IMG/VR virus record: IMGVR_UViG_3300020183_000013
Span: 32,001-96,000 of that record
DNA: 64,000 nucleotides
Source of the DNA: a virus
Direction: 5' to 3' (one strand)
The stretch's first letter is position 1. Each line of letters begins with the position of its first letter. Both the position numbers and the translations under genes were made by a program. Under the pieces are notes generated by a model that was not told the DNA's origin, searched no databases, and saw only the letters and a list, made by a program, of their open reading frames with translations. This document shows positions 2,851 to 46,153 of this stretch, piece after piece.

Positions 2851-3107
2851 CATACAAACTTTCACGGGACGGGTTTGGTCAGCAGTACGTTTTGAGTATT
2901 ACTGAGCAAGGCACAAAAGTCATCCCCTTCGACCCTGCCAACACCGACTATCAGGCATACCTGCGCTGGCTGGAAGACGGCAACAGCCCGCTCCCGGCGG
3001 ATGAACCAGACCCCATTCCCGAACCAGAACCTCTAACTGCTCAACAGAAACTAGAGGCATCAGGACTTACAGTACAAGAACTCAAAGATCTTCTTGGGTT
3101 ATCATAA
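2847..3107 (+). CDS. Putative tail fibre assembly chaperone
   Basis: IPFDPANTDYQAYLRWLEDGNSPLPAD motif; overlaps the fibre stop codon (ATGA). Confidence 0.7.
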   Translation: MTYKLSRDGFGQQYVLSITEQGTKVIPFDPANTDYQAYLRWLEDGNSPLPADEPDPIPEPEPLTAQQKLEASGLTVQELKDLLGLS

Positions 3108-3124
3108 ATACCTAAAAAACCACA

Positions 3125-4369
3125 ATGGGAATTCAGATAAACGGACAAACTGATACTATCTCTGCATCTGATGGTGGTTTGTCCATCAGTGGAATGGATT
3201 TATCAGGTGTTACGAGTATTAATGCCTCAGGTATTGGTACTTTTACTAATGGTCCTGTTCTTATAGGTTCTGCTACTTCTACTGGTACTGCATCTCAAAG
3301 ACTTCAGGTTACTGGTGGTGGATACTTTAGTGGTAATGTCGGCATAGGAATCACAAATCCATCCACTAAACTTGATGTTTTTGTAACAAGTGGAAATGCA
3401 ATTAGAGCAATTTCAAATCCAACTTATTCACCTTATCCACTGTCAATTGGAGTAATTGCAGGACTTTCTACAAATGCAGCATCTTCCAATGCTTCTCAAT
3501 TTGCAGCAGCTGGTATTGGTGTAACAAGTGGAGAAATAGGTGTTTATTCTTTTTATCCAACATTTGCAAACTTTCCATCAGATAGAGGTCCAAGAAGAGC
3601 AGTTGATTTAGTTGGTGGATTTGCAGGAGTTTGGGGAACTGAATACTTTGCGATTAATGTTGGTAGAGATGGTTTTTCTAATGATAGTGCTGTTTTAACT
3701 AATGAAAGATTAAGAGTTACTGGAAGTGGTAATCTTGGTATAGGAACCACAAATCCGAGTGTAGTTTTAGATATAGCAACTTCCAATGATGCTATTATAA
3801 AGGCAACCACGACAGGTTCTATTCAATCATCTATGGTTACTTTGATAGGTAAACAAGCAGGAGTAAGTAATGAATGGAGTATAGTATCAACAGGTAATGG
3901 TTTATCTGGTCCTCAACTTCGTTTCGTGAATGGTGGTTGGACCAGTTCTCCGTATATGCAAATAGATTCTTCCGGTAGAGTTTTGAAAGCATCTCAACCA
4001 TATTTTTATGCAAGAGGAGCAAATAGTAACTATACGCTTACAAATGGAGCAGATTTACCATTCAATGATGCTATAACGAATATTGGAAATCATTTCAACA
4101 CAACAAACTATAGATTTACTGCTCCAATCGCAGGAAGATATTTGATTACATGGTCTGTTTTCGTTAACATCGTGGCCGGTAGATGTGTTATTAAAGTAAA
4201 TGGGTTAAATTATAACAATCTTCAGATGGATTCTGGTGCTGCAATGTCACAATCTGCAATACTCTCATTAAGTGCTAATGACTATGTTACGGTTGGTGAT
4301 TGGCAAAGTTTTTCGGGTATGCAAGTTTATATGGGACACTGCCACTTTAGTGGTATTCTTCTATCATAA
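3125..4369 (+). CDS. Tail fibre-like protein with C-terminal C1q-like domain
   Basis: GNVGIGITNP repeats; C-terminal PYFYA...F...N.GNHFNTTNYRFTAPIAGRY...LSLSANDYV C1q signature. Confidence 0.75.
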   Translation: MGIQINGQTDTISASDGGLSISGMDLSGVTSINASGIGTFTNGPVLIGSATSTGTASQRLQVTGGGYFSGNVGIGITNPSTKLDVFVTSGNAIRAISNPTYSPYPLSIGVIAGLSTNAASSNASQFAAAGIGVTSGEIGVYSFYPTFANFPSDRGPRRAVDLVGGFAGVWGTEYFAINVGRDGFSNDSAVLTNERLRVTGSGNLGIGTTNPSVVLDIATSNDAIIKATTTGSIQSSMVTLIGKQAGVSNEWSIVSTGNGLSGPQLRFVNGGWTSSPYMQIDSSGRVLKASQPYFYARGANSNYTLTNGADLPFNDAITNIGNHFNTTNYRFTAPIAGRYLITWSVFVNIVAGRCVIKVNGLNYNNLQMDSGAAMSQSAILSLSANDYVTVGDWQSFSGMQVYMGHCHFSGILLS

Positions 4370-4389: not shown

Positions 4390-4662
4390 ATGGATTATAC
4401 TATTACTTTAACCGAAGCAGAAAATAAAGCATTAGAATATGTTACTGCATCTCCACAAGAATGGATTGATAATGCAGCAACCAACAGAGCACGTATTGCT
4501 ATCGATGAAATCTGTGATATCTATGTTAAGCATAAACTAGATAACAATCTTCCTATCACAGTTACAAACAAACCAGATATGGTTCTAGCGGCTTTTGAAG
4601 AGGGATTAGTCACTACAGCAGTACAAAGAAATCAAGAAGCAGCATCTAATACTGTTTCATAA
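4390..4662 (+). CDS. Small fibre-associated protein (putative chaperone), paralog 1
   Basis: Highly similar to 6093..6365; follows a C1q-tipped fibre; own late promoter. Confidence 0.7.
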   Translation: MDYTITLTEAENKALEYVTASPQEWIDNAATNRARIAIDEICDIYVKHKLDNNLPITVTNKPDMVLAAFEEGLVTTAVQRNQEAASNTVS

Positions 4663-4679
4663 ATACCTAAAAAACTATA

Positions 4680-6068
4680 ATGGCATCTGAACTTAGAGTA
4701 AACAATATCAAGAACAGAAGTGGACTCGGAACAGTCACCTTTGCTGATGAAGGACTGGTTATTTCTGGCATCACAAGTTTAAGTTTAGGTGACACGAGTT
4801 TAATCGTTGGTTCTGCTACTTCTACAGGTACTGCAAGTCAGAGATTACAGGTAACTGGTGGTGCTTATGTGAGTGGTAGTATTGGTATAGGAACCACAGT
4901 ACCGGCACAGAAATTACACATTCAAGATGGTTCGGATGGACTAAGAATAAGTGCAACTGCTGTAGAACAAACTTCATCATCAGGACTTACATTAAATGGT
5001 TCTAATGCTTCTGGTTTTATTGCTTTTAGGGCAGCAGGTAATGAAAGAGCCCGTATAGATTCAAGTGGTAATGTCGGCATAGGCACCGATAATCCACTGG
5101 CAAAACTTCACATCCGTACTACATCCTATACAACTCCGTGTTTAGTTTTTCCAGATGCAACAAATCCAAGATATTCTGTTGGATTTGGAAATGCTAATAT
5201 ATTTGGTGTTGGACAAAGATTAGATTTTTATGCTGGTGATAGTGGTTCTAATACTTCTAATCTTAGCAGTGCTCATTTAAGAATGAGTTTGACTGCCGAT
5301 GGTAATCTGGGCATAGGAACCACAAATCCAAGTTCTTCTCTCCACGTTGCAGGTTCAAGAAACAATTATCCAACGCAACCAGGAGTTCATATTGGTGAAG
5401 GTGGGACAAATGATTTTGCTTTAGACATTTGCTGTCGCAACAGTAGTGCCAGTTCATACATCGACTTTACTCATCCAGGTCAAGACTATAAAGGTCGTGT
5501 TATAAAAACTATGGGAGGTGTTTTCTCTATTCAAAATACAGAAGCAACTCCAATGACTTTATATAATAATGGTGATAATAGAATAATCATTGATAGTTCT
5601 GGTAGGGTGACGATGCCTTATCAACCTGGTTTTTTCGCTTCTAGTGATAATGCTGGTGCTGCTAACCAACCAGCAACTGGTGATACTGCTATGCTTGGAA
5701 CTTTATTCAATATAACTTCTCAAACAGGTGGATTTAACACAGGAAATCATTACAACACTGGAACAGGCATCTTCACAGCACCAGTTGCTGGAAAATACTA
5801 TACATTTTTTAATATGAGATGGGAAACTGCAAACTTTGTTCAAAATAGTTACATTAGAATTTTTATATCAAAAAATAATACTCATACAGTGTTTATTCAC
5901 CAAATTAATGGTACTAATGAAGCTTGGTCTAATTATATGGCGATGTCTTGTTCTGGTATTATGGACCTTGCTGCTGGTGATACATTAAGACCAAAGGGAG
6001 GTCTGAATGGTGGAACTGCACAGGCCTGGTGGAGTGAATCATCTTGGGGCGCTTGGTTATTAGGATAA
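4680..6068 (+). CDS. Tail fibre-like protein with C-terminal C1q-like domain
   Basis: GIGTxNP repeats; QPGFFA...HYNTGTGIFTAPVAGKY...MDLAAGDTL C1q signature. Confidence 0.75.
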   Translation: MASELRVNNIKNRSGLGTVTFADEGLVISGITSLSLGDTSLIVGSATSTGTASQRLQVTGGAYVSGSIGIGTTVPAQKLHIQDGSDGLRISATAVEQTSSSGLTLNGSNASGFIAFRAAGNERARIDSSGNVGIGTDNPLAKLHIRTTSYTTPCLVFPDATNPRYSVGFGNANIFGVGQRLDFYAGDSGSNTSNLSSAHLRMSLTADGNLGIGTTNPSSSLHVAGSRNNYPTQPGVHIGEGGTNDFALDICCRNSSASSYIDFTHPGQDYKGRVIKTMGGVFSIQNTEATPMTLYNNGDNRIIIDSSGRVTMPYQPGFFASSDNAGAANQPATGDTAMLGTLFNITSQTGGFNTGNHYNTGTGIFTAPVAGKYYTFFNMRWETANFVQNSYIRIFISKNNTHTVFIHQINGTNEAWSNYMAMSCSGIMDLAAGDTLRPKGGLNGGTAQAWWSESSWGAWLLG

Positions 6069-6092: not shown

Positions 6093-6365
6093 ATGGATTA
6101 CACCGTTACTCTAACTGAAGCAGAAACCAAAGCAATGGAATATGTCGCTGCTGATCCACAAGATTGGATTGATAACGCAGCACACAACCGTGCTCGTATT
6201 GCAATTGATGAGATTTGTGACTTATATGTAAAGCATAAGTTAGATAATAATCAACCCATCACGGCAACCAACAAACCAGATATGGTTTTAGCTGCATATG
6301 AAGAGGGTCTAGTGAAAACAGTAGAAGAAAAAAATCAAGAAGCAGCATCTAATACTGTTTCATAA
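6093..6365 (+). CDS. Small fibre-associated protein (putative chaperone), paralog 2
   Basis: Paralog of 4390..4662. Confidence 0.7.
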   Translation: MDYTVTLTEAETKAMEYVAADPQDWIDNAAHNRARIAIDEICDLYVKHKLDNNQPITATNKPDMVLAAYEEGLVKTVEEKNQEAASNTVS

Positions 6366-6382
6366 ATACCTAAAAAACTATA

Positions 6383-8005
6383 ATGGCACTTAACTTTCCA
6401 GACGCACCTACTGTAAATGAAGTTTATACAGATAACACTTCTGGGTTTTCTTTCAAGTGGGATGGATATGTCTGGCAAAGTTTTACTCCACAATCAACAA
6501 AAGAAATTGTAATTCTTGATGATATTTCTGGTTCTTTTAATGATTCAACTGTAACATTCGCACTTACAGAATCCGGAATACCATTCTATCCTGCGAATGC
6601 ACAACAACTTAGAATTGTTCTTGGTGGTGTAGTTCAAGCGCCAATTACTGATTATACAATTTCATCATCAAATATTACTTTCACAACCGCACCAAGTTCT
6701 GGATTAACATTCTCCGGAGTTTCACTAGGCCCTGCTGTACCGATTGGAACTGCAATTGTTGCTGATGGTTCTATAACACCAATTAAGTTATCGACTGGAG
6801 GGCCTTCTTGGAATACCTCTGGAGATTTATATGTTTCCGGAATTTCAACAGTTACCAATGCTCTTGGTACTGTCAAGATTGGAACTGGAAACACAACGTT
6901 AATTGTAGAAGGAAACACAAGAGTTACTGGTATTCTTACAATTGGAACAAGTTCAGTTACTCTTAATGGAACAACTGATCAGGTTAATGTAGGTTCTGCT
7001 ACAACCATTCATACTAGTGGATTTAGAATCGGAAGTTCTGATTTACACTCAACTGGATTAAGTATTGTCAATTTAAATTCTTCTGGTATTGGTACTTTTA
7101 ATGATATTAACTTCACGGGAACTTTAAATCAAAACGGAAGTCCTTTTGTTGCATCTAGATGGACTGCAGGAACTGGTAATGATATCTACAGGTTAACTGG
7201 TAATATCGGCATAGGAACCACAAATCCACAAGCAAAACTTGATGTGAATGGAACTGCTAGAGCAAATAGATTTACAGTTCCTTATGGAACAGTTTTAACA
7301 ACATATAAAACTAATAATCCTTCTACCAATGTTGCAATTGAAGGATCACCCAATGATAGAGATTTTTGGATATTCAGAGATCCAGCAGACTCTAATTCGA
7401 ACTGGGGAATATATCATAGAAATATTGACTCATCTTTATCAGAGTCTGGTGAATATACTGTTCCAGCAAACAGTATTTCTTTTGTTGGTGGTGGAACTAA
7501 TAGTCCAGGTGTGACAATTGATCTTGCATATGGAGATTTACAAGTTAAGAGAAATATTAAAATAGGAAATGATAATATTATTCAATGGGTGGAAGTAACA
7601 CCAGGAGTAACAGAATGGTCTTTTACTGGTGGTGTAACTTCACAAGCAATTACACTAAATCCATCCACCATACCCTCAACTGCTCGTTATGTTCTTGCTG
7701 ATGTTTTTGCAACTGCTAATTCCAGCGATCACCAGAATTTTGTTTTGGGTAGAAACGTTTTAACAAATCAAACAAACTGGGTTGGATCAAGGGGACAGCA
7801 ACCATCAGGACAATTTGGAACACTAACTCGTCAGGCAATTACTCTTACTTATAATGGTGAAACAGATGGATACAGCCCATTCTTTGGTGTATGGTATTCC
7901 AGTCAACACATACCAACCAGTGGAAGGACAATTTATTTTAATAACTTTGGAAACTCTGGGAGTAATGGGTGGCTTTATGTTCTTGTAAAAGCATATTCTC
8001 TATAA
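6383..8005 (+). CDS. Virion structural / tail-fibre-like protein
   Basis: LDDISGSFN...LGGVVQAP..DYTIS...ITFTTAP cyanophage structural domain plus GIGTTNP fibre repeat. Confidence 0.75.
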   Translation: MALNFPDAPTVNEVYTDNTSGFSFKWDGYVWQSFTPQSTKEIVILDDISGSFNDSTVTFALTESGIPFYPANAQQLRIVLGGVVQAPITDYTISSSNITFTTAPSSGLTFSGVSLGPAVPIGTAIVADGSITPIKLSTGGPSWNTSGDLYVSGISTVTNALGTVKIGTGNTTLIVEGNTRVTGILTIGTSSVTLNGTTDQVNVGSATTIHTSGFRIGSSDLHSTGLSIVNLNSSGIGTFNDINFTGTLNQNGSPFVASRWTAGTGNDIYRLTGNIGIGTTNPQAKLDVNGTARANRFTVPYGTVLTTYKTNNPSTNVAIEGSPNDRDFWIFRDPADSNSNWGIYHRNIDSSLSESGEYTVPANSISFVGGGTNSPGVTIDLAYGDLQVKRNIKIGNDNIIQWVEVTPGVTEWSFTGGVTSQAITLNPSTIPSTARYVLADVFATANSSDHQNFVLGRNVLTNQTNWVGSRGQQPSGQFGTLTRQAITLTYNGETDGYSPFFGVWYSSQHIPTSGRTIYFNNFGNSGSNGWLYVLVKAYSL

Positions 8006-8078
8006 TAAATACTCAAAAAGATTATAATGAAGGTGGTATCCAAACTAGAATTAACTCATAAATACCTAAAAAACCATA

Positions 8079-8525
8079 ATGTCTAGAACAAAAGTACAAC
8101 TTGTCGGTGATGCTCAAGGTGGAGCAAACTTTGCTGGTATTGTAACTGCGACATCAGCAAATGTTGGTTCTGGAATTACTCTAAGTGGAACTCAGATTAA
8201 TGTAGGTTCAGCAACGACCATTCATAGTAATGGTTTTAGAATCGGAAGTTCAGACTTGCATTCTTCTGGGGTTACGTTACAAAATGCCAATATTCTTGGT
8301 GTAGTTACCGCAACATCAATTCGACTAAATGGTCAAACTTTATTCAATGGTGTTGGTATTGGAACATTTGGAGTAACAGTAGGAACTGGTGTAACTTTTA
8401 TTGATTTGAGAGGTGCAGGTATTTCCACAGTAACAGTATCATCAGGTATCGCTACAATAAATGTAACTGGTGGCGGCGGAGGAGGAGGAGGAGGATTTAG
8501 TCCAATAAACTTCATCCTTTCATAA
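8079..8525 (+). CDS. Short fibre-like structural protein
   Basis: Shares the VGSATTIHxxGFRIGSSDLHS segment with 6383..8005; GIVTATS repeats. Confidence 0.65.
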   Translation: MSRTKVQLVGDAQGGANFAGIVTATSANVGSGITLSGTQINVGSATTIHSNGFRIGSSDLHSSGVTLQNANILGVVTATSIRLNGQTLFNGVGIGTFGVTVGTGVTFIDLRGAGISTVTVSSGIATINVTGGGGGGGGGFSPINFILS

Positions 8526-39865: not shown

Positions 39866-40084
39866 GATCTATTATAATGTATGGTGTTGTGCTTATCAGA
39901 GAAGGTATCTGTATAAGAAAACACCAAGAGAAAGTAGAGAGCATGAGACTGTTCTTATGTGTTTAGGTATCGCAAGGTTCACAGTGTTTGATACTGAAAA
40001 AACTAAGCATTTAAGTTAATATAACGATAATATGATATTAAAATAATAAAAAAACGGCTTTTTAAATCATAGCCTATTATTTTG

Positions 40085-40107
40085 TTATTGATAATCATTC
40101 TCAATAA
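40085..40107. promoter_or_regulatory. Fur-box-like palindrome
   Basis: TTATTGATAATCATTCTCAATAA; core TGATAATCATTCTCA has one mismatch to the 7-1-7 Fur consensus TGATAATnATTATCA. Confidence 0.55.
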
Positions 40108-40118
40108 AAGGTGTGATG

Positions 40119-40210
40119 AATACTCTTTTAATACCCTATAATACCCTTAGATATCTTATAAACCCTTAGATATCTTATGTTAATACCTTATAATACCCTT
40201 ATAAACCCTT
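40119..40210 (+). repeat. Tandem ~10-11 bp phased repeats (AATACCCTT / AAACCCTT / GATATCTT)
   Basis: About 9 related units in non-coding AT-rich DNA. Confidence 0.75.
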
Positions 40211-40237
40211 CGGATCCTTGTGATCTTACACGTCGGC

Positions 40238-40266
40238 AGCTTAGCACAAGGTCTCTGAGTTGTCAA
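40238..40266 (-). promoter_or_regulatory. Leftward sigma70-type promoter
   Basis: Minus strand TTGACA(40266-40261)-N17-TAAGCT(40243-40238) with TG extension. Confidence 0.55.
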
Positions 40267-40276
40267 GGGACGCGCA

Positions 40277-40633
40277 CGAGATTCGCAGAGACGCACTAGA
40301 TTCGCACACACAAGACACTTCGAGATTCGCATAGGTCTCATAGTTACTTCGAGATTCGCACAATACCTTATAATCAAACTAGATTCACATCATATCATTA
40401 TATCGTTATATCATACTAGATTCACATAAGTTCTCGTAATCATTTCGAGATTCGCATCAATCACATAAACACTTCGAGATATCATCATATCATCATATCA
40501 TCATATACTAGATTCATTTCGAGATTCACACAATACATCTAGATTCTTACTAGATTCGCATATATACTGTCAAGGGTCTCGTGAACACTTCGAGATTCGC
40601 ACACAATAACTTGACACACCTTCTAGATTCACG
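40277..40633 (+). repeat. Iteron-like array: 14 copies of C(G/T)AGATTC(G/A)CA
   Basis: Copies start at 40277, 40296, 40321, 40350, 40379, 40416, 40446, 40475, 40508, 40520, 40539, 40550, 40591 and 40623. Confidence 0.85.
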
Positions 40634-40639
40634 TATACT
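40611..40639 (+). promoter_or_regulatory. Near-consensus sigma70 promoter
   Basis: TTGACA-N17-TATACT; the last array repeat sits in its spacer. Confidence 0.8.
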
Positions 40640-40671
40640 ATACACATAGTTTTTCAGGAGTTCGAGTTCTT

Positions 40672-40845
40672 ATGTCTAGTTCTTATCTGTCTGCAACAAA
40701 GACTAAGTATCGCATCACGTTAGAGCTAGAGGTGTTTCCAGATATGAATCCTCATCAGATTCAGTGGGAACGTGTACTCGAACTTGAGCCTGCGGAGAAG
40801 GTTAACTCTTATGTCGAAGACCTGAGTACACCTGACCGCTGGTAG
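40672..40845 (+). CDS. 57-aa hypothetical protein next to the repeat array
   Basis: AGGAG RBS; MSSSYLSATKTKYRITLELEVFPDMNPHQIQWERVLEL... Confidence 0.65.
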   Translation: MSSSYLSATKTKYRITLELEVFPDMNPHQIQWERVLELEPAEKVNSYVEDLSTPDRW

Positions 40846-41705: not shown

Positions 41706-41966
41706 ATGCTCAAGAAAGTATCACCCGAAAAGGCAACTCCATCTCCTGTTGTAGTTAACAAAGGAAAGCATGGATACAACTGCTGGGTGTATTCTAGCAG
41801 GATTCAGAAGAATGGCAACACATACTTTAAGTATACAATTGCCCACACATTCAAGCAAAAGTTTGTATCTAGAGAGGATGCCCTGATGTATGGTTGGGCG
41901 AAAGTTAATGGGCACAAAGTTACAACTTTCGATGTGCCCATGCGCCACAAACCTGTGACAGTCTGA
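41706..41966 (+). CDS. Basic hypothetical protein
   Basis: Single-gene cassette between copies 14 and 15. Confidence 0.6.
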   Translation: MLKKVSPEKATPSPVVVNKGKHGYNCWVYSSRIQKNGNTYFKYTIAHTFKQKFVSREDALMYGWAKVNGHKVTTFDVPMRHKPVTV

Positions 41967-42013
41967 CTAGTGGCACAAGACCCCTTGCGGTTCTCCTGAT
42001 TCTGGTTTACATT
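41954..42013 (+). promoter_or_regulatory. Early promoter element copy 15
   Basis: TGTGACAGTCTGACTAGTGGCACA; TTGCGG-N17-TACATT(42008). Confidence 0.8.
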
Positions 42014-42040
42014 ACATTCGTTCAAACAAAGGAACACCAA

Positions 42041-42286
42041 ATGCGTCCTGTTTCTGTTCACCCTGAGAAAAGCATTCGGTTCACTGAACACGCTAAGTTC
42101 TGGTGTGAAATGTTGAACAATTATCGCAAATGTTACCCTAAGCATTCGTTTGCTAAAATGGCAGAACATTTCGATCTGAGTGAAACAAATGCCCGCCGAT
42201 ATTACTATGGAATGCATCAAGCAAATCTGGGGTATTTTGGCAATGGTTACAATCAAATCCGCAGGGGTGCCTGTGTGACACTCTGA
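42041..42286 (+). CDS. Helix-turn-helix protein
   Basis: SFAKMAEHFDLSETNARRYY fits an HTH pattern. Confidence 0.55.
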   Translation: MRPVSVHPEKSIRFTEHAKFWCEMLNNYRKCYPKHSFAKMAEHFDLSETNARRYYYGMHQANLGYFGNGYNQIRRGACVTL

Positions 42287-42333
42287 GAACTGCCACAAGG
42301 GGGGTTGCAATGCTCCCCAATCCGTTCTACATT
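42274..42333 (+). promoter_or_regulatory. Early promoter element copy 16
   Basis: TGTGACACTCTGAGAACTGCCACA; TTGCAA-N17-TACATT(42328). Confidence 0.8.
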
Positions 42334-42358
42334 ACATTCGTTCCTGAGACACCAACCG

Positions 42359-42796
42359 ATGACCGTGACTCTGACTGCTTCCTATCGTGAAATGCTGCAC
42401 GAAGATGCAGTTGCTAAGATCGATGAGCTTCTGGAGGAGAACTATGCTCTCGATGATATGCTTGAGTTCATCGATGAGCGTAATGAGACCAACTTCGTTC
42501 TCTTTTATGAAGAGTATGTGCGTGTTGGTGAAGCAATCGGTTATGAAGCAGTAGATGCTCTCATTGATGAAATGGGATGCGTTTCTGACATTGAAGATTG
42601 CGACGAACGTTATCAAGGTTGCTATCAAGATGAGGCAGAGTTTGCAGAATCTTTCTACAATGAAATGGGTTGCAACATCCCTGAAGGAATTGTAGTGGAT
42701 TGGGAAGCAACGTGGGAAACTTCGCTGCATTATGATTACACTTCCTGCAGTGATGGTAGCACCTATCGTTCTTGCCACATCTTCCGCGATTGCTGA
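42359..42796 (+). CDS. ArdA-like acidic anti-restriction (DNA mimic) protein
   Basis: Very acidic; YQGCYQDEAEFAESF...IP...VDWEATW..L..DY resembles the ArdA C-terminal domain. Confidence 0.6.
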   Translation: MTVTLTASYREMLHEDAVAKIDELLEENYALDDMLEFIDERNETNFVLFYEEYVRVGEAIGYEAVDALIDEMGCVSDIEDCDERYQGCYQDEAEFAESFYNEMGCNIPEGIVVDWEATWETSLHYDYTSCSDGSTYRSCHIFRDC

Positions 42797-42914
42797 TAAG
42801 AATGGGGGGATTAATTCCCTCCCTTTTTTTATACTTTTATTTTAAATATTTTTTAGCAGGGGCGGTGGCGATGGTTTTCGTCTTAGAGGCTACCCCGCCT
42901 CTCATCCGATTGTC
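42797..42914 (-). ncRNA. Candidate structured sRNA transcribed leftward from element copy 17
   Basis: Minus-strand TATAAT(42925-42920); no ORF; hairpin AGAGGC/GCCUCU with possible pseudoknot. Confidence 0.5.
42803..42830 (+). terminator. Rho-independent terminator (possibly bidirectional)
   Basis: GGGGGGA-TTAAT-TCCCTCCC followed by a T tract. Confidence 0.7.
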
Positions 42915-42919
42915 CCCAT

Positions 42920-43014
42920 ATTATAAGGCAGCCACGGGGGCATTCGTGGGCAGCCAGTGCCACTTCCCGAACTGACCACGACCCATTGCGTTGGGTGCTG
43001 ATCCGTGCCATACT
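42920..43014. promoter_or_regulatory. Bidirectional early promoter element copy 17
   Basis: AGTGCCACTTCCCGAACTGACCAC(42956-42979), with CATACT 29 nt to the right and minus-strand TATAAT 30 nt to the left. Confidence 0.7.
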
Positions 43015-43020
43015 AACCGT

Positions 43021-43932
43021 ATGCAAAACAAACACCTCGAACACCCCGAAGATACCATCCTCACGGGTGACCTTTCTGTTCTTGATTGGTTTACTGCTGC
43101 AGGATTCCTGAGTGTAAAGATTGATGGTGCCCCTGCAATTGTATGGGGTAAGAATCCTGCGAACGGTAAGTTCTTCGTTGGCACCAAAGCTGTGTTCAAC
43201 AAAGTAAAGATTCGTATTGCACACAATTATGAAGAAATTGATGCGTTCTATCAAGGTGAGGTTGCGTCTATTCTTCGTGCTTGTTTTGATTATCTGCCTC
43301 GCATCGATGGTATCATTCAAGGGGATTTTATTGGTTTTGGCGGTAGTGATGAGTATTGCCCCAACACGATTACTTACCAGTTTGGTGAAGTAGTAACTGA
43401 AGAGATCATTGTTGCACCTCACACTTACTACGTTGCAGAAAAGGATCTGCGGGATGCTGTAGCGTATCCGATGAACTTTATCATCACTGATACTCCCTGT
43501 GTGAAGTTTGTGAAACCTGATGTATACATTGCACACGGTCAAGAATCGTTCGCTGATGTAAAAGAAGTCTGTGGATTTGCTCGTCAAATGTCTACTCTTG
43601 CAACGTTTGTAACTGATAAGGAAGCACAGAAGATCAAGCAACAACTGAATGCCTGCATTCGTGCTGGTGAAGAAGTCAACCCTGAGGACTTTGATTGTGA
43701 TGCTAACCTGTTGCGTTTGTGGGCACTGGTGAAGTCGATTAAGGATGATTGTCTGTTCCTTTGTCGTAACAATGGGCCTGCAGCTTATCTGGGTTCTCCT
43801 CATAACGGCTATGAAAGAATTGACTCTGAGGGTTACGTAATGACCAATGAGTTTGGTATGTTCAAACTGGTGAATCGTGAGGTATTCTCTCACGCCAACT
43901 TCACCAACGGTCGATTTCAGTGTGCCACCTAA
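43021..43932 (+). CDS. Conserved T4-like protein (DUF6267-like) with RNA/DNA-ligase nucleotidyltransferase motifs
   Basis: HLEHPED N-terminus; SVKIDGAPA (KxDG), IQGDF, SEGYV, FKLVNR. Confidence 0.65.
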   Translation: MQNKHLEHPEDTILTGDLSVLDWFTAAGFLSVKIDGAPAIVWGKNPANGKFFVGTKAVFNKVKIRIAHNYEEIDAFYQGEVASILRACFDYLPRIDGIIQGDFIGFGGSDEYCPNTITYQFGEVVTEEIIVAPHTYYVAEKDLRDAVAYPMNFIITDTPCVKFVKPDVYIAHGQESFADVKEVCGFARQMSTLATFVTDKEAQKIKQQLNACIRAGEEVNPEDFDCDANLLRLWALVKSIKDDCLFLCRNNGPAAYLGSPHNGYERIDSEGYVMTNEFGMFKLVNREVFSHANFTNGRFQCAT

Positions 43933-43980
43933 ACAAGTGCCACATCCTCCCTTGTGGAGGTCCTGGATTCGTGCCATACT
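43921..43980 (+). promoter_or_regulatory. Early promoter element copy 18
   Basis: TGTGCCACCTAAACAAGTGCCACA; CCTCC..GGAGG; TGcCATACT(43975). Confidence 0.8.
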
Positions 43981-44003
43981 ACGTTTGTTGCTGAGGGATT
44001 TCA

Positions 44004-44516
44004 ATGGATTTCGACACTGACTTCTGGGGTGAGATTCAAGATGCCCCTGGTGAAATCTTCGACATTCCAGAGTTCGATGACTCTGATGATTTCAACCTCA
44101 ATGAGTATTTGAACGCTTCCTACGATTACTGAAACAATGCAATTTCAAGTTACTGCAATCGAGTTTGATTTTGATGATGAGGATCTACATCCTGAGGAGA
44201 AATCTGACATCATCGAGGATACAGTAGGACACATCTGGGAAGCAGATGATGAAGATGATCTCATTGAAGAGATCACTTCGTGGACAGGTTGGTGCATCAA
44301 ATCCATTGATTATCGTCACGTTCTGATCTGATTATGTACCGCACTGAACTTCAAGACGCCTACATCAATCAGGTTCTTGATGATATGGACATCAAAGATG
44401 CAATGGCATTGTTGTTTGATTTTATGGATGCTGACCTTGATAAGTATAGTGAAAAGCAACTGATTGAAGAGATTAGTCACTTTTATCCCGAACTGGTGGA
44501 GGATGTGACAGACTGA
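44004..44516 (+). CDS. Three very acidic small genes (44004..44132, 44137..44331, 44334..44516)
   Basis: D/E-rich peptides downstream of copy 18. Confidence 0.6.
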
Positions 44517-44564
44517 CTAGTGGCACAAGGGGTCGCCACAGACCCCACCCTGACCCCTTATACT
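44504..44564 (+). promoter_or_regulatory. Early promoter element copy 19
   Basis: TGTGACAGACTGACTAGTGGCACA; GGGGTCGCCACAGACCCC; TATACT(44559). Confidence 0.8.
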
Positions 44565-44587
44565 GATCTCAGTTCAGACAACCCCCG

Positions 44588-44827
44588 ATGATCGTCCAAC
44601 AGATCGGCAGCAACATGACCGAAGTGCAACTTGCCGATGGCACTTGTGTACTGGTCTCCTACACGACCCCCGTTGCTGCCCTTGTGCCTGGGAAGGGATG
44701 GATCCGCACTGCCCACAAGTGGAGCGCCACCACCACCAAGCACATTAACAAGTGGCTTGCCAAGAACTGCGGTGGCGCTGTTCAGACTGTGACACAATGG
44801 GAAGTGGATCAACTGCTCGCATTCTGA
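44588..44827 (+). CDS. Conserved phage small protein
   Basis: LVSYTTPVAA...WSATTTKHINKWL pattern. Confidence 0.7.
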   Translation: MIVQQIGSNMTEVQLADGTCVLVSYTTPVAALVPGKGWIRTAHKWSATTTKHINKWLAKNCGGAVQTVTQWEVDQLLAF

Positions 44828-44847
44828 CCTTTCCGACCCTGTAGAAT
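44788..44847 (+). promoter_or_regulatory. Early promoter element copy 20 (degenerate right half)
   Basis: TGTGACACAATGGGAAGTGGATCA; TAGAAT(44842). Confidence 0.6.
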
Positions 44848-44851
44848 CCTT

Positions 44852-45240
44852 ATGATCACCACCACCCGATTCCGCTTGATCCGCACCCCTCGCTTCCTTG
44901 CTCCTCTGTTCTACGCTGCCCTCGCTACCCGCCCCCGTGTCGGTGATGAGGCAGCGGCAGTGAGCATCGGTCCTGCCTACCTTGGCATCTACCGCACCCA
45001 TAACGGGTTTGAGGTTGTCTACGGCATCCTGAACGAACAGGAAGCACTCTGACCAATGGGAACTGCAGCGCCCTAAAGACTGCTTCAACCATCCTACCCC
45101 TTTCTGAAATGACCCGCGACCTGGCTCTGTCCCTGCTCCGTCAAGGCACCAACGGCGACAGCATCCTTAAGATTCTGGAGACCATCGCCAACCCTAGCGA
45201 CGATAGCGCACAACCGACCGCCGAGCCCATCCAGTTCTGA
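44852..45240 (+). CDS. Two small genes (44852..45052; 45109..45240)
   Basis: GC-rich ORFs; MTRDLALSLLRQGTNGDSILKILE. Confidence 0.55.
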
Positions 45241-45286
45241 CTCTGACCACTGGCCCCCTCGGATGATCCGCAGGGGGCCTTATACT
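45227..45286 (+). promoter_or_regulatory. Early promoter element copy 21 (degenerate)
   Basis: CCATCCAGTTCTGACTCTGACCAC; GGCCCCCT...AGGGGGCC hairpin; TATACT(45281). Confidence 0.6.
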
Positions 45287-45309
45287 AAGGGGACCGAAGC
45301 AACTCACCG

Positions 45310-45828
45310 ATGAACACCGCCACCATCACCACCGCCCAGCAACAATACCTGGATGCCTTCGCCGCTCTGTATGAGGCAGCGGATGCTCTGAACGCCGGTG
45401 ATCCGATGTCCTATGCCCGTTCCCGTGAGATCCACCTTGCCTGCCTGCTGGGCCACACCGTTGCCGATACGTACAGCGGTGCTGATGCCTTCGAAGCGGA
45501 TGGCACCCCTGTAGAGTACAAAAGCACCATCGGCGCTCAGATCTCTGCGACCTACAACGGCATCAGCGTTCAACCGACCTGGGAAGAGCAGGAGGCCTAT
45601 CTGATCGACCATAAGATCGGATGCTACCCCCGCCACTATTACGCCCGCTATGAGGGTGCCCAGGTTGCTGAGGTTTGGGTTCTGGATTCTGATACGGTGC
45701 TCTCCCTGCTGCTCCCTAAGGCAGAACGCCAGTACGCCACCAAGCGCAACGGCAAGGCAAAGGATCCCCGCATCGGCGTCAGCATCTCCGCTGGTGAGAT
45801 CCGCAAACACGCCCGCCGCCTGGTCTGA
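45310..45828 (+). CDS. PD-(D/E)xK restriction-endonuclease-like protein
   Basis: SRE...GADA......VEYKS catalytic pattern. Confidence 0.6.
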   Translation: MNTATITTAQQQYLDAFAALYEAADALNAGDPMSYARSREIHLACLLGHTVADTYSGADAFEADGTPVEYKSTIGAQISATYNGISVQPTWEEQEAYLIDHKIGCYPRHYYARYEGAQVAEVWVLDSDTVLSLLLPKAERQYATKRNGKAKDPRIGVSISAGEIRKHARRLV

Positions 45829-45867
45829 TCCGTGCTACAATTCTTTCAGTCCAACCGACACCGACCA

Positions 45868-46053
45868 ATGGCACTCTACAACATCGCATCCGACCGCACG
45901 ACCCGCCAGACCATCTGGGTTAGCACCAACGTTGTGAAGGGTCGCCCCCAGATCAACTCCCACTCCTCCGCTGCTTATGCTCGGGAAGGGTTCGACGGAT
46001 TCACCGCCGCCGAACTGGCAGGACTTCACACCGACTACCGTGGGGTGGGGTGA
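45868..46053 (+). CDS. Small hypothetical protein
   Basis: ATG downstream of TGcTACAAT(45836). Confidence 0.55.
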   Translation: MALYNIASDRTTRQTIWVSTNVVKGRPQINSHSSAAYAREGFDGFTAAELAGLHTDYRGVG

Positions 46054-46086
46054 CCCCCCTCCCATTCGTTCGGAGCATTCGTGAAT

Positions 46087-46153
46087 GGCAGTTATGGGTA
46101 TAACGGCGGCGTTATGTCCGCCCGCCCTGCCGTTATAAAAACCCATAACTACC
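46087..46153. other. Long imperfect inverted repeat / stem-loop at the GC-content boundary
   Basis: GGCAGTTATGGGT...ACCCATAACTACC enclosing TATAACGGC...GCCGTTATA. Confidence 0.8.

What the first reader, a model, noticed from the sequence alone, without database searches (positions are those of the whole stretch)
42797..43014. One element is bidirectional and appears to drive an antisense, pseudoknot-capable small RNA
Seen in sequence: copy 17 has a -10 box at the canonical distance on both sides, including a perfect minus-strand TATAAT at 42925-42920. The leftward transcript has no ORF: ACAAUCGGAUGAGAGGCGGGGUAGCCUCUAAGACGAAAACCAUCGCCACCGCCCCUGCUAAAAAA... It can form AGAGGC/GCCUCU, whose GGGGU loop can pair with downstream GCCCC, plus GAUG/CAUC. 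It runs ~115 nt to the hairpin at 42803-42823. Inference: an early phage sRNA (sponge, decoy, antitoxin mimic or ribozyme-like RNA). The symmetry also supports the palindrome acting as an orientation-independent activator site.
Basis: partly seen in the sequence, partly recalled or inferred. Interest (0 to 1): 0.7.

Follow-up and report, generated by a model that had tools for sequence, protein, structure and literature searches.

The report
Conserved leftward small RNA of cyanophages
Between two early genes of this T4-like cyanophage lies a small gene pointing the other way that most likely makes a non-coding RNA of about 80-115 bases, shared by well over a hundred related phage sequences, in no RNA database, and of unknown function.

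Summary
A perfect minus-strand TATAAT (42925-42920) lies 30 nt left of a degenerate early-promoter dyad (42956-42979). The rightward -10 (43009-43014) lies 29 nt to the dyad's right.

The DNA read leftward from it (42913 to about 42845) is one member of a conserved non-coding family. I collected 130 distinct copies from uncultured virus and metagenome contigs and from four cultured phages: S-SRM01, DSL-LC03, P-SSM2 and P-SSM5.

- **Promoter geometry:** in 117 of 124 copies a TAnnnT hexamer is followed, after an unconserved spacer of 27-32 nt (mostly 29), by the dyad.
- **Hairpin:** it is real. All five pairs covary. All 66 wobble pairs are G.U only on the minus strand, which fixes the RNA strand.
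- **Rejected claims:** comparison does not support the proposed pseudoknot or the GAUG/CAUC helix. Folding energy is unremarkable.
- **Coding:** no ORF is conserved.
- **Databases:** Rfam holds nothing like it.
- **Expression:** not tested, because no RNA run was listed. The 3' end and the function are unknown.

My best reading is an early, dyad-driven trans-acting small RNA that binds a protein or a host RNA.

This scan reached the same reading before on other cyanophage DNA (notes e1-5327476, e1-5697257, e1-5669673).

The parts
42845..42913 (-). Conserved core of the putative small RNA. The predicted start is A at 42913, 7 nt after the -10 box. Conservation runs to the invariant U-A (plus T42847 A42848) and A42845.
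   Evidence: Alignments A4 and A5. Upstream-of-GCAGG profile: T(-9) and A(-8) in 70 of 70, A(-11) in 56 of 70. CM R1 scores this copy 88.8 bits.
42886..42901 (-). Covarying 5-bp hairpin with hexaloop GGGGUA. In the window a sixth pair extends it to 42885-42902.
   Evidence: 98.3% of 410 cells paired; 5 of 5 pairs changed on both sides; covariation 0.782 against 0.196 shuffled (0 of 500) and at most 0.127 when slid. There are 66 G.U/U.G cells on the minus strand.
42920..42925 (-). -10 box TATAAT of the leftward promoter.
   Evidence: A TAnnnT sits at the equivalent place in 117 of 124 copies, with a fixed gap to the dyad. No -35-like hexamer is present (CACGAA, read).
42926..42955 (.). 30-nt spacer between the leftward -10 box and the dyad. 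It contains a small inverted repeat, CCACG/CGTGG.
   Evidence: Spacer length is 27-32 nt in 117 copies (29: 63, 28: 26, 30: 17). Mean pairwise identity is only 34% among 68 copies with a 29-nt gap.
42956..42979 (.). Degenerate copy of the early-promoter dyad TGTGNCA-N10-TGNCACA (here AGTGCCA-N10-TGACCAC, 8 of 12).
42986..43014 (+). Rightward promoter of the DUF6267 gene: -35-like TTGCGT, 17-nt spacer, -10 CATACT. The ATG is at 43021.
   Evidence: Read. Same layout as the other dyad promoters (D3). DUF6267 hit of 264 bits.
42804..42830 (+). Intrinsic terminator of the upstream ArdA-like gene (hairpin 42804-42823 plus T run). Possible weak two-way terminator and 3' end of the leftward RNA.
   Evidence: The A-rich tract ATAAGAAT precedes the hairpin. 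Only 12 of 90 related loci with such a hairpin have that A tract.
42831..42844 (-). AT-rich tail between the conserved core and the terminator hairpin. It is unconserved in sequence.

Best explanation
**What it is.** The stretch holds a small non-coding RNA gene on the minus strand. It belongs to an undescribed family found in part of the T4-like cyanophages (Kyanoviridae).

**How it is made (inferred).** Host RNA polymerase starts about 7 nt after a TAnnnT -10 box (start near 42913). That box sits 29-30 nt from the same dyad that serves the rightward early promoter. The RNA should therefore be made together with the early genes.

**What the RNA looks like.**
- A short leader (ACAAUC..).
- A purine-rich GAG(G) run.
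- A 5-bp hairpin with a G-rich hexaloop (GGGGUA).
- A long, almost invariant unpaired 3' tract (..GACGA..AUCGCCACCG-NN-CCUGC..AUnAAAUA).

In the window it probably ends at the upstream gene's two-way terminator, giving about 115 nt.

**How it most likely works (inferred).** It acts in trans. The hairpin loop and the unpaired tract would be a binding surface for a host or phage protein (decoy or sponge) or for a host RNA.

**Shown:** conservation, covariation, strand, promoter geometry, and the lack of coding.
**Inferred:** transcription, the 3' end, early timing, and trans action.

**My odds.** About 75% that a minus-strand transcript is made. Given that: roughly 40% protein binder, 30% base-pairing regulator of a host RNA, and 30% a cis role or a primer role.
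For: 1. **Family.** There are 130 distinct copies, gathered with three sequence patterns and with the CMs R1 and R2. They include S-SRM01 (2 copies), DSL-LC03, P-SSM2 and P-SSM5.
2. **Hairpin.** On 82 representatives sharing under 90% identity (ungapped, over the 106-nt window), 98.3% of 410 cells pair. All 5 pairs change on both sides. The covariation score is 0.782, against 0.196 in shuffles (0 of 500 reach it) and at most 0.127 when partners are slid. The 7 unpaired cells lie in two misaligned rows (L185, L188), which have their own 5-bp stems.
3. **Strand.** GU 61, UG 4 and GU 1, making 66 wobble cells on the minus strand. These would be A.C mismatches on the plus strand. No genuine case goes the other way.
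4. **Promoter.** TAnnnT, then 27-32 nt, then a dyad scoring at least 8 of 12, is found in 117 of 124 copies against 2-11 of 124 in ten shuffles. The variable hexamer positions are the ones a sigma-70 -10 box tolerates (TATCTT 47, TATAAT 12, TATCCT 8 and others). Spacer identity is 34% against 78% for the RNA's 3' tract.
5. **Specificity.** Among 17 good dyads of this genome only 4 have any minus-side TAnnnT, where my estimate of the chance expectation is about 2.6.
6. **Not coding.**
7. **Not cellular.** Of 10 matches in 185,579 species genomes, only one short lake contig is a true copy, and none lies in a cyanobacterial genome.
Against: - No transcript was seen. No RNA run could be listed, so expression rests on sequence alone.
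- There is no -35-like hexamer on the minus side (CACGAA). The consensus promoter scan did not list this promoter.
- Single-sequence folding is no better than shuffles.
- Only one short helix is supported, so 'structured RNA' is a modest claim.
- A terminator with a U tract for the leftward RNA exists in only 12 of 90 related loci, so the 3' end is undefined.
- A -10-like TATnAT also lies upstream on the plus strand, with T48 A36 T45 n A56 T48 of 70. Plus-strand or convergent transcription is therefore not excluded.
- The homologue set was gathered with patterns that fix GCAGG, GTG and CGA (and TACCC..CC in one pattern). Invariance of those bases is partly imposed.
- No complement of 11 nt or more to the RNA exists elsewhere in this phage genome (0 found, 3.7 in shuffles). 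A phage-encoded target with long pairing is unlikely, and no target is known.
- S-PM2, Syn9 and S-SZBM1 gave no match, and S-SM2 gave only E = 0.88. The RNA is not essential to the phage family.
Confidence: 0.6

Rival explanations
1. The leftward transcript acts in cis or at the DNA level. One form is a persistent RNA-DNA hybrid that primes replication, as at T4 oriF/oriG: an activator-dependent promoter followed by an easily melted tract. Another is a leftward promoter whose job is to collide with or insulate read-through from the upstream cassette.
For: - The layout is an activator-type dyad promoter, then a G-rich 5' RNA segment (GAGGGGAGGGG in the common type), then an AT-rich tract before the terminator.
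- Most genomes hold 1-2 copies.
- The element lies in the plastic early region among promoter-terminator cassettes.
- Both roles still need the conserved promoter, so the promoter evidence fits.
Against: - A covarying hairpin with an invariant loop and a 30-nt invariant tract is not needed for interference.
- It is not a known feature of T4 origins (recalled, not tested).
- The AT-rich tract is short or absent in several subtypes (..TTTTTTTATGATTACCGGAAG|GCAGG).
- One contig carries 5 copies in both orientations.
- First-stage notes place a separate origin-like iteron array at 40020-40845 (not tested).
Confidence: 0.15
2. The functional strand is the plus strand. The element would be a plus-strand small RNA or a leader/trailer of the flanking rightward genes, started from the AT-rich TATnAT upstream of GCAGG or reached by terminator read-through.
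For: - A TATnAT-like hexamer ends 10 nt before GCAGG. T(-9) and A(-8) are invariant in 70 of 70, and A(-3), a possible start, is present in 60 of 70.
- The element has the same orientation as the flanking genes in the loci inspected.
- The plus strand folds slightly better in the window (z -1.58 against -1.05).
Against: - On the plus strand 66 of 410 helix cells become A.C mismatches, and no wobble pair is plus-specific.
- The plus -10 is weakly conserved: A at position 2 in only 36 of 70. In the window itself it is poor (TTTAAA).
- The plus-strand minimum-energy fold uses bases that vary freely in relatives.
Confidence: 0.1
3. It is a double-stranded DNA site for a protein, or a recombination/shuffling cassette of the PeSL kind. 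It would be conserved as DNA and never act as RNA.
For: - There are long invariant blocks of primary sequence.
- It sits between a terminator and a promoter, where T4-type phages shuffle cassettes (PMC2839356 seen in the search listing only; passages of PMC4122927 read).
- Close relatives L004 and L005 keep the element but have a different gene downstream.
Against: - Double-stranded sites do not produce compensatory changes in a stem, nor a strand-specific G.U signature.
- A conserved, correctly spaced -10 box pointing into the element has no role in this reading.
Confidence: 0.07
4. It encodes a small protein: the 22-codon minus-strand ORF from 42905, or the plus-strand frame 42772-42975.
For: - Both frames are open in the window.
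- The three variable bases in GCAGGNNCNGTG could be read as codon wobble positions on either strand (read).
Against: - The minus ATG is present in 18 of 82 representatives. Seven of those stop after 7 codons, and the others change frame through a 1-nt indel.
- The distance from GATG to the hairpin is 17, 18 or 19 nt in different subtypes, which shifts any plus frame.
- TAA occurs in the plus frame in several copies (TAAGCAGG).
Confidence: 0.02

Closest known systems
Early-gene regulatory element of T4-like cyanophages (Doron et al. 2016, ISME J 10:1437; recalled from its abstract and named in earlier scan note e1-5327476; the paper is not held)
   Same: A repeated element upstream of early genes in T4-like cyanophages, said to be abundant and conserved. 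The dyad TGTGNCA-N10-TGNCACA, 29-31 nt before a -10 box, fits that description. It occurs in this genome, in freshwater relatives and in P-SSM2.
   Different: I could not compare sequences with the published motif. As far as I recall, that work describes it as driving early protein genes. Here one copy also faces a -10 box on its other side and drives a conserved non-coding unit.
Phage lambda OOP RNA (77 nt; listed in the review PMC12197685, passages read)
   Same: A short phage RNA made from its own promoter, pointing against the neighbouring genes and running towards the 3' end of the gene upstream.
   Different: OOP overlaps and acts on cII in cis (recalled). Here the conserved part lies wholly in the intergenic space. 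The upstream CDS ends at 42796, before the terminator. The upstream gene also differs between phages, so the conserved sequence cannot be antisense to a fixed gene.
CfrI antisense RNA of cyanophage S-PM2 (~225 nt; review PMC12197685)
   Same: A non-coding RNA of a T4-like cyanophage.
   Different: CfrI is antisense to the psbA / homing-endonuclease junction. S-PM2 has no copy of the present element.
lambda-type nut sites (boxA plus boxB; recalled, not tested)
   Same: A conserved linear block next to a 5-bp hairpin whose stem covaries while the loop is fixed. That is the usual look of a protein-binding RNA hairpin.
   Different: No N-like protein or boxA sequence is known here. The element follows, rather than precedes, the nearest terminator on the plus strand. 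This is a functional analogy only.
PeSL cassettes of T4-type phages (PMC2839356 seen in the search listing only; passages of PMC4122927 read)
   Same: Terminator stem-loop plus early promoter modules punctuating a plastic early region. Relatives L004 and L005 differ from the window by a gene cassette at exactly this module.
   Different: As described in the passages I read, PeSLs are sigma-70 promoters with stem-loops in coliphage-, Vibrio- and Aeromonas-type phages. No dyad and no conserved divergent non-coding unit is mentioned there, and the word 'cyanophage' does not occur in PMC4122927.

Membership tests
Any Rfam 15 family | Match to a covariance model at or near its gathering score | tested here: not met
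   Whole window at gathering score: 0 matches. Region 42780-43040 at E up to 10: best 16 bits against cut-offs of 39-80. Six loci with other variants at E up to 1: 0 matches.
Structured non-coding RNA supported by covariation | Helix kept through compensating changes, above controls | tested here: met
   One 5-bp helix: 5 of 5 pairs changed on both sides, 98.3% of cells paired, controls far lower. No second helix was found.
   Pairs 52-86 and 53-85 are unpaired in 24 and 38 of 76 sequences, with no double changes.
Sigma-70-type promoter (leftward) | -10 hexamer with T1, A2 and T6 | tested here: met
   TATAAT in the window. TAnnnT at the equivalent place in 117 of 124 copies.
Sigma-70-type promoter (leftward) | -35 hexamer 16-18 nt upstream | tested here: not met
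   CACGAA / CCACGA (read). Not listed by the consensus scan. The spacer is unconserved.
Dyad-dependent early promoter of T4-like cyanophages | Dyad TGTGNCA-N10-TGNCACA 29-31 nt from the -10 box | tested here: met
   30 nt on the minus side and 29 nt on the plus side in the window. Gap distribution over 117 copies: 27:1, 28:26, 29:63, 30:17, 31:7, 32:3. The window's dyad is weak (8 of 12).
Dyad-dependent early promoter of T4-like cyanophages | Identity with the published early element and early timing of transcription | not testable with these tools
   Paper not held. No RNA run listed.
Intrinsic terminator for the leftward RNA | GC-rich hairpin followed by a U run on the minus strand | tested here: inconclusive
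   In the window the hairpin is followed by AUUCUUAU (5 U of 8). Only 12 of 90 related loci have the matching A tract.
cis-antisense RNA of the OOP kind | Overlap with the coding region of the convergent gene | tested here: not met
   The conserved core (42845-42913) and the terminator (42804-42830) lie after the stop of the upstream ORF at 42796.
Small protein gene | Open frame and start codon kept in relatives | tested here: not met
   indels of 1-2 nt.

The most novel reading that the evidence does not exclude
A small RNA switched on with the earliest phage genes by the same two-way dyad acts as a decoy. Its fixed G-rich hairpin loop and invariant unpaired tract would capture a host factor, such as a ribonuclease, an RNA-binding regulator or a defence sensor. 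Alternatively they would silence a conserved host mRNA, helping take-over in both freshwater and oceanic picocyanobacteria. That would make it the first trans-acting regulatory RNA family known from T4-like cyanophages.
Probability: 0.25. Interest if true: 0.8.

Novelty: new member of a known kind. Interest (0 to 1): 0.6.

Why it matters
T4-like cyanophages kill a large share of the picocyanobacteria that carry out much of aquatic photosynthesis. How they take over the cell in the first minutes is poorly known.

Almost all work has looked at their proteins. In what I could read, the only cyanophage RNAs on record were riboswitch-like motifs and the antisense RNA CfrI (review PMC12197685).

A conserved RNA gene wired to the early-gene switch would be a new player in take-over. 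It also gives a simple handle on that switch, because one dyad with a promoter on each side is a natural reporter pair for finding the factor that reads the dyad.

The element occurs in culturable systems (P-SSM2, P-SSM5, S-SRM01), so the claim can be tested directly.

Tried and rejected
- **Expression data:** no RNA holder was listed for window 41900-44100.
- **Pseudoknot and GAUG/CAUC helix:** rejected on pair counts.
- **Further helices:** RNAalifold on both strands found only the hairpin. My all-against-all column scan found no other clean covarying pair.
- **Thermodynamic stability:** not significant on either strand.
- **Coding:** rejected.
- **Known RNA families:** none. No tRNA or tmRNA.
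- **Host-derived origin:** the pattern scan of species genomes gave 10 places. The CM confirms only L170, a 1.3-kb contig binned with a lake actinobacterial MAG; the others are GC-rich chance matches.
- **Phage-encoded target:** A k-mer scan found no complement of 11 nt or more (0 against 3.7 in shuffles), and 9 complements of 10 nt (16.1 in shuffles).
- **Host target search:** not possible.
- **Literature:**
  - Searches found no description of this RNA or of the dyad.
  - Doron et al. 2016 is not held.
  - Passages read: Sullivan et al. 2010 (PMC3037559) searched only for sigma-70, T4 late, Pho and NtcA sites. The 2025 review of phage sRNAs (PMC12197685) lists only abiF, wcaG, manA, glnA and CfrI for cyanophages.
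  - Supplements are closed, so TSS tables of published cyanophage transcriptomes may bear on this.
- **Mis-steps:**
  - One search failed because a search term was too short, and was corrected.
  - The first representative list dropped the window row as a near-duplicate of L004. I added it back by reference.
- **Rows dropped before counts:** 12 chance pattern hits (L036, L042, L056, L073, L076, L079, L107, L114, L134, L137, L142, L145), judged by eye and lacking the shared blocks. Also L171-L179, L001 (a duplicate of the window), and copies too close to a contig end for the flank needed.
Full report
**Setting.** The window is part of a T4-like cyanomyovirus. Its genes match Synechococcus and Prochlorococcus phages of the Kyanoviridae at 66-72% DNA identity. 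The finding lies in the 224-nt gap between two rightward early genes. The upstream gene is ArdA-like (ORF ending 42796; a weak Pfam ArdA hit of 20.8 bits, below the cut-off of 27) and ends in a clear plus-strand intrinsic terminator (hairpin 42804-42823 plus T run). The downstream gene is a DUF6267 protein (ATG 43021; 264 bits). The gap is GC-rich (56-58%) in a region of about 40-45% GC.

**The observation.** Bases 42920-42925 read ATTATA, so the minus strand carries a perfect TATAAT. I found 17 copies scoring at least 10 of 12 in the 137.6-kb genome. Twelve of them have a TAnnnT hexamer 29-31 nt to their right. That agrees with first-stage note e1-6155492. The copy in this gap (42956-42979) is degenerate, at 8 of 12. 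It has the usual rightward promoter: TTGCGT, a 17-nt spacer, and CATACT at 43009-43014, 29 nt from the dyad. It also has the leftward TATAAT 30 nt from its other edge. Leftward hexamers are not a general property of the dyads. Only 4 of the 17 have any minus-side TAnnnT at 28-31 nt, all inside upstream coding sequence, where my estimate of the chance expectation is about 2.6.

**Conservation.** A BLAST of the gap hit an unannotated stretch of Synechococcus phage DSL-LC03 (77.5% over 89 nt, E 1e-10) and a 28-nt block in S-SRM01. From these three sequences I wrote a degenerate pattern. It found 31 stretches in viral contigs. Twelve of these were chance hits, which I removed by eye. A covariance model built on 76 distinct copies (R1) then found a second, diverged copy 1.5-1.8 kb from the first in S-SRM01 and in two large viral contigs. 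It found one copy in the window's own genome. It gave a weak hit in Prochlorococcus phage P-SSM2 (28.9 bits). Two further patterns, modelled on the second copy and on P-SSM2, added 16 and 42 stretches.

In all I hold 130 distinct copies. Cultured carriers are S-SRM01, DSL-LC03, P-SSM2 and P-SSM5. S-PM2, Syn9 and S-SZBM1 gave no match even with the broader model R2, and S-SM2 only E = 0.88. Species genomes of bacteria and archaea do not hold the element. Of 10 pattern matches, about what chance predicts by my estimate, only one 1.3-kb lake contig is a true copy.

A caveat applies throughout. The patterns fix GCAGG, GTG and CGA (one also fixes TACCC..CC), so invariance of those bases is partly imposed. 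The hairpin stems, the -10 box, the spacer, the dyad and the bases upstream of GCAGG were free.

**Structure.** RNAalifold finds one helix on either strand. I counted it on 82 representatives sharing under 90% identity (ungapped, over the 106-nt window; A5). The five pairs are standard in 98.3% of 410 cells, and every pair shows changes on both sides. The pair types are:
- Outer pair: GU 61, GC 18, AU 1, CG 1.
- Second pair: GC 53, CG 15, AU 10, UA 2.
- Third pair: GC 61, UA 10, AU 7, CG 2.
- Fourth pair: GC 71, CG 8, GU 1.
- Closing pair: AU 29, CG 27, UA 18, GC 4, UG 4.

The covariation score is 0.782, against 0.196 for shuffled partners (0 of 500 reach it) and at most 0.127 for slid partners. 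The seven unpaired cells belong to two misaligned rows (P-SSM2 and a relative). These have their own 5-bp stems with an 8-nt loop.

The window's sixth pair is private to its subgroup (3 of 76). GAUG/CAUC fails too, pairing in 24 of 76 at its middle pair. A scan of all column pairs showed no other clean covarying pair. Single-sequence folding energies are ordinary (z between -0.25 and -1.58).

**Which strand.** All 66 wobble cells (61 + 4 + 1) are G.U or U.G when the element is read on the window's minus strand. On the plus strand they are A.C mismatches. There is no genuine case of the reverse. Where the outer pair is not G.U it is G-C, A-U or C-G, so it really is a pair. This is the signature of a helix that forms in a minus-strand transcript.

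**Promoter.** Immediately upstream of the conserved block, in the minus sense, 117 of 124 copies with enough flank have a TAnnnT hexamer. It is separated by 27-32 nt from a dyad scoring at least 8 of 12 (29 nt in 63 copies, 28 in 26, 30 in 17). Ten shuffles gave 2-11 of 124. The hexamers vary at the positions a sigma-70 -10 box tolerates (TATCTT 47, TATAAT 12, TATCCT 8, TATGAT 8, TAGGAT 7, TAGAAT 7 and others). The spacer keeps its length but not its sequence: 34% mean pairwise identity among 68 copies with a 29-nt gap, against 78% for the RNA's 3' tract. Conservation therefore begins at the -10 box. It runs through about 80 nt and ends at an invariant U-A (plus T(-9) A(-8), 70 of 70; not imposed by the pattern used there). 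P-SSM2 shows the same layout: TATAAT, 29 nt, then TGTGCCACTTTAATAACTGGCACA, inside a 400-nt unannotated gap. There is no -35-like hexamer on the leftward side. That fits a promoter dependent on whatever reads the dyad, but this is an inference.

**Not coding.** The window has a 22-codon minus-strand ORF from 42905. Its ATG is present in 18 of 82 representatives. Seven of those stop after seven codons, and the others shift frame through a 1-nt indel. On the plus strand the distance between GATG and the hairpin is 17, 18 or 19 nt in different subtypes, and some copies carry TAA in frame.

**The 3' end.** A plus-strand terminator hairpin lies within 110 nt in 90 of 127 copies (median 31 nt from GCAGG). 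Only 12 of those 90 have the A tract that would give the leftward RNA a U tail, and the window is one of them. The ~115-nt length is thus plausible here but is not a family feature.

**Function.** No RNA-seq run could be listed. The RNA has no complement of 11 nt or more elsewhere in its own genome (0 against 3.7 in shuffles). I could not search host genomes.

The anatomy is one short hairpin with a fixed G-rich loop, next to a long invariant unpaired tract. The RNA is made from an early-type promoter and is present in 1-2 copies per genome (five on one contig, L164, in both orientations). This points to a trans-acting RNA recognised by sequence, either by a protein or by a host RNA.

A cis or primer role is compatible with the promoter evidence but does not explain the covarying hairpin and invariant tract. 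Examples are R-loop priming as at T4 oriF/oriG (recalled) and interference with read-through. A plus-strand or pure-DNA reading conflicts with the wobble signature.

**What is known.** Rfam 15 has no such family. My six literature searches and the passages I read (PMC3037559, PMC4122927, PMC12197685, PMC6359870) mention neither this RNA nor the dyad. From memory of its abstract, Doron et al. 2016 reported 'a novel regulatory element' controlling early genes of Syn9 and P-TIM40. The dyad is probably that element, but the paper is not held and supplements are closed.

Earlier follow-ups in this scan reached the same reading on other cyanophage genomes. These were a marine one including P-SSM2 (e1-5327476), a freshwater one (e1-5697257) and a duplicated pair (e1-5669673). 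I had found P-SSM2, the second copy and the strand before reading those notes. They are not independent evidence.

**Verdict.** The stretch holds a real, conserved, undescribed small-RNA gene candidate. Its promoter and strand are well supported by comparison. The pseudoknot is not supported, and expression and function are untested.

Noticed in passing
window 42912-42950 and 45256-45294: The leftward promoter region resembles, in inverted orientation, the rightward promoter region upstream of ORF 45310-45828 (72% over 39 nt; ..GCCTTATAATATGGGGAC against ..GCCTTATACTAAGGGGAC). It looks like one promoter cassette used in both orientations.
   Followed up: partly
window 44520-46140: A GC-rich island (55-66% GC against about 40%) holds several small rightward ORFs, each behind its own TTATACT-type -10 box. 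The 172-aa ORF at 45310-45828 has no Pfam hit. A first-stage note calls it PvuII-like.
   Followed up: partly
window 43009-43023: The -10 box of the DUF6267 gene ends 6 nt before its ATG, so this mRNA may be leaderless. In relatives L004 and L005 the same promoter has a leader of about 21 nt before a different gene.
   Followed up: no
L004 4190-4290 and L005 (minus strand) against window 43021-44136: Close relatives keep the ArdA-like gene, the RNA element and the dyad promoter. They lack the DUF6267 gene and the next small ORF, and the promoter runs straight into the homologue of window ORF 44137-44331. This is a cassette gain or loss at the promoter module.
   Followed up: partly
L164 5207-9062: One 16-kb viral contig carries five copies of the element, in both orientations, interleaved with small leftward genes. 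It is a different genomic context from the T4-like early region.
   Followed up: partly
L024 6597-6702: A clear copy of the RNA core (71 bits with R1) sits in a GC-rich 66-kb viral contig with no TAnnnT box or dyad beside it. The element may have moved outside T4-like cyanophages.
   Followed up: no
window 40277-40637: Many same-direction repeats of ..CGAGATTCGCAT.. / ..TAGATTCACA.. lie in a gap without ORFs. First-stage notes read them as an iteron-like origin candidate.
   Followed up: no
window 3098-3133, 4653-4688, 6356-6391, 8052-8087: A repeated TCATAAATACCTAAAAAAC(C/T)A(C/T)AATG lies directly before structural ORFs. This looks like T4-type late promoters (TATAAATA-like) with a fixed leader.
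   Followed up: no
window 42356-42796: The upstream early gene gives only a sub-threshold ArdA hit (20.8 bits, cut-off 27). Its homologues are annotated 'anti-restriction protein' in S-PM2 (NC_006820.1) and S-SZBM1 (NC_070839.1).
   Followed up: partly
L186 700-860 (P-SSM2 66300-66460): Three further dyad copies are packed within about 150 nt just upstream of the P-SSM2 copy of the RNA element, inside the same unannotated 400-nt gap.
   Followed up: no
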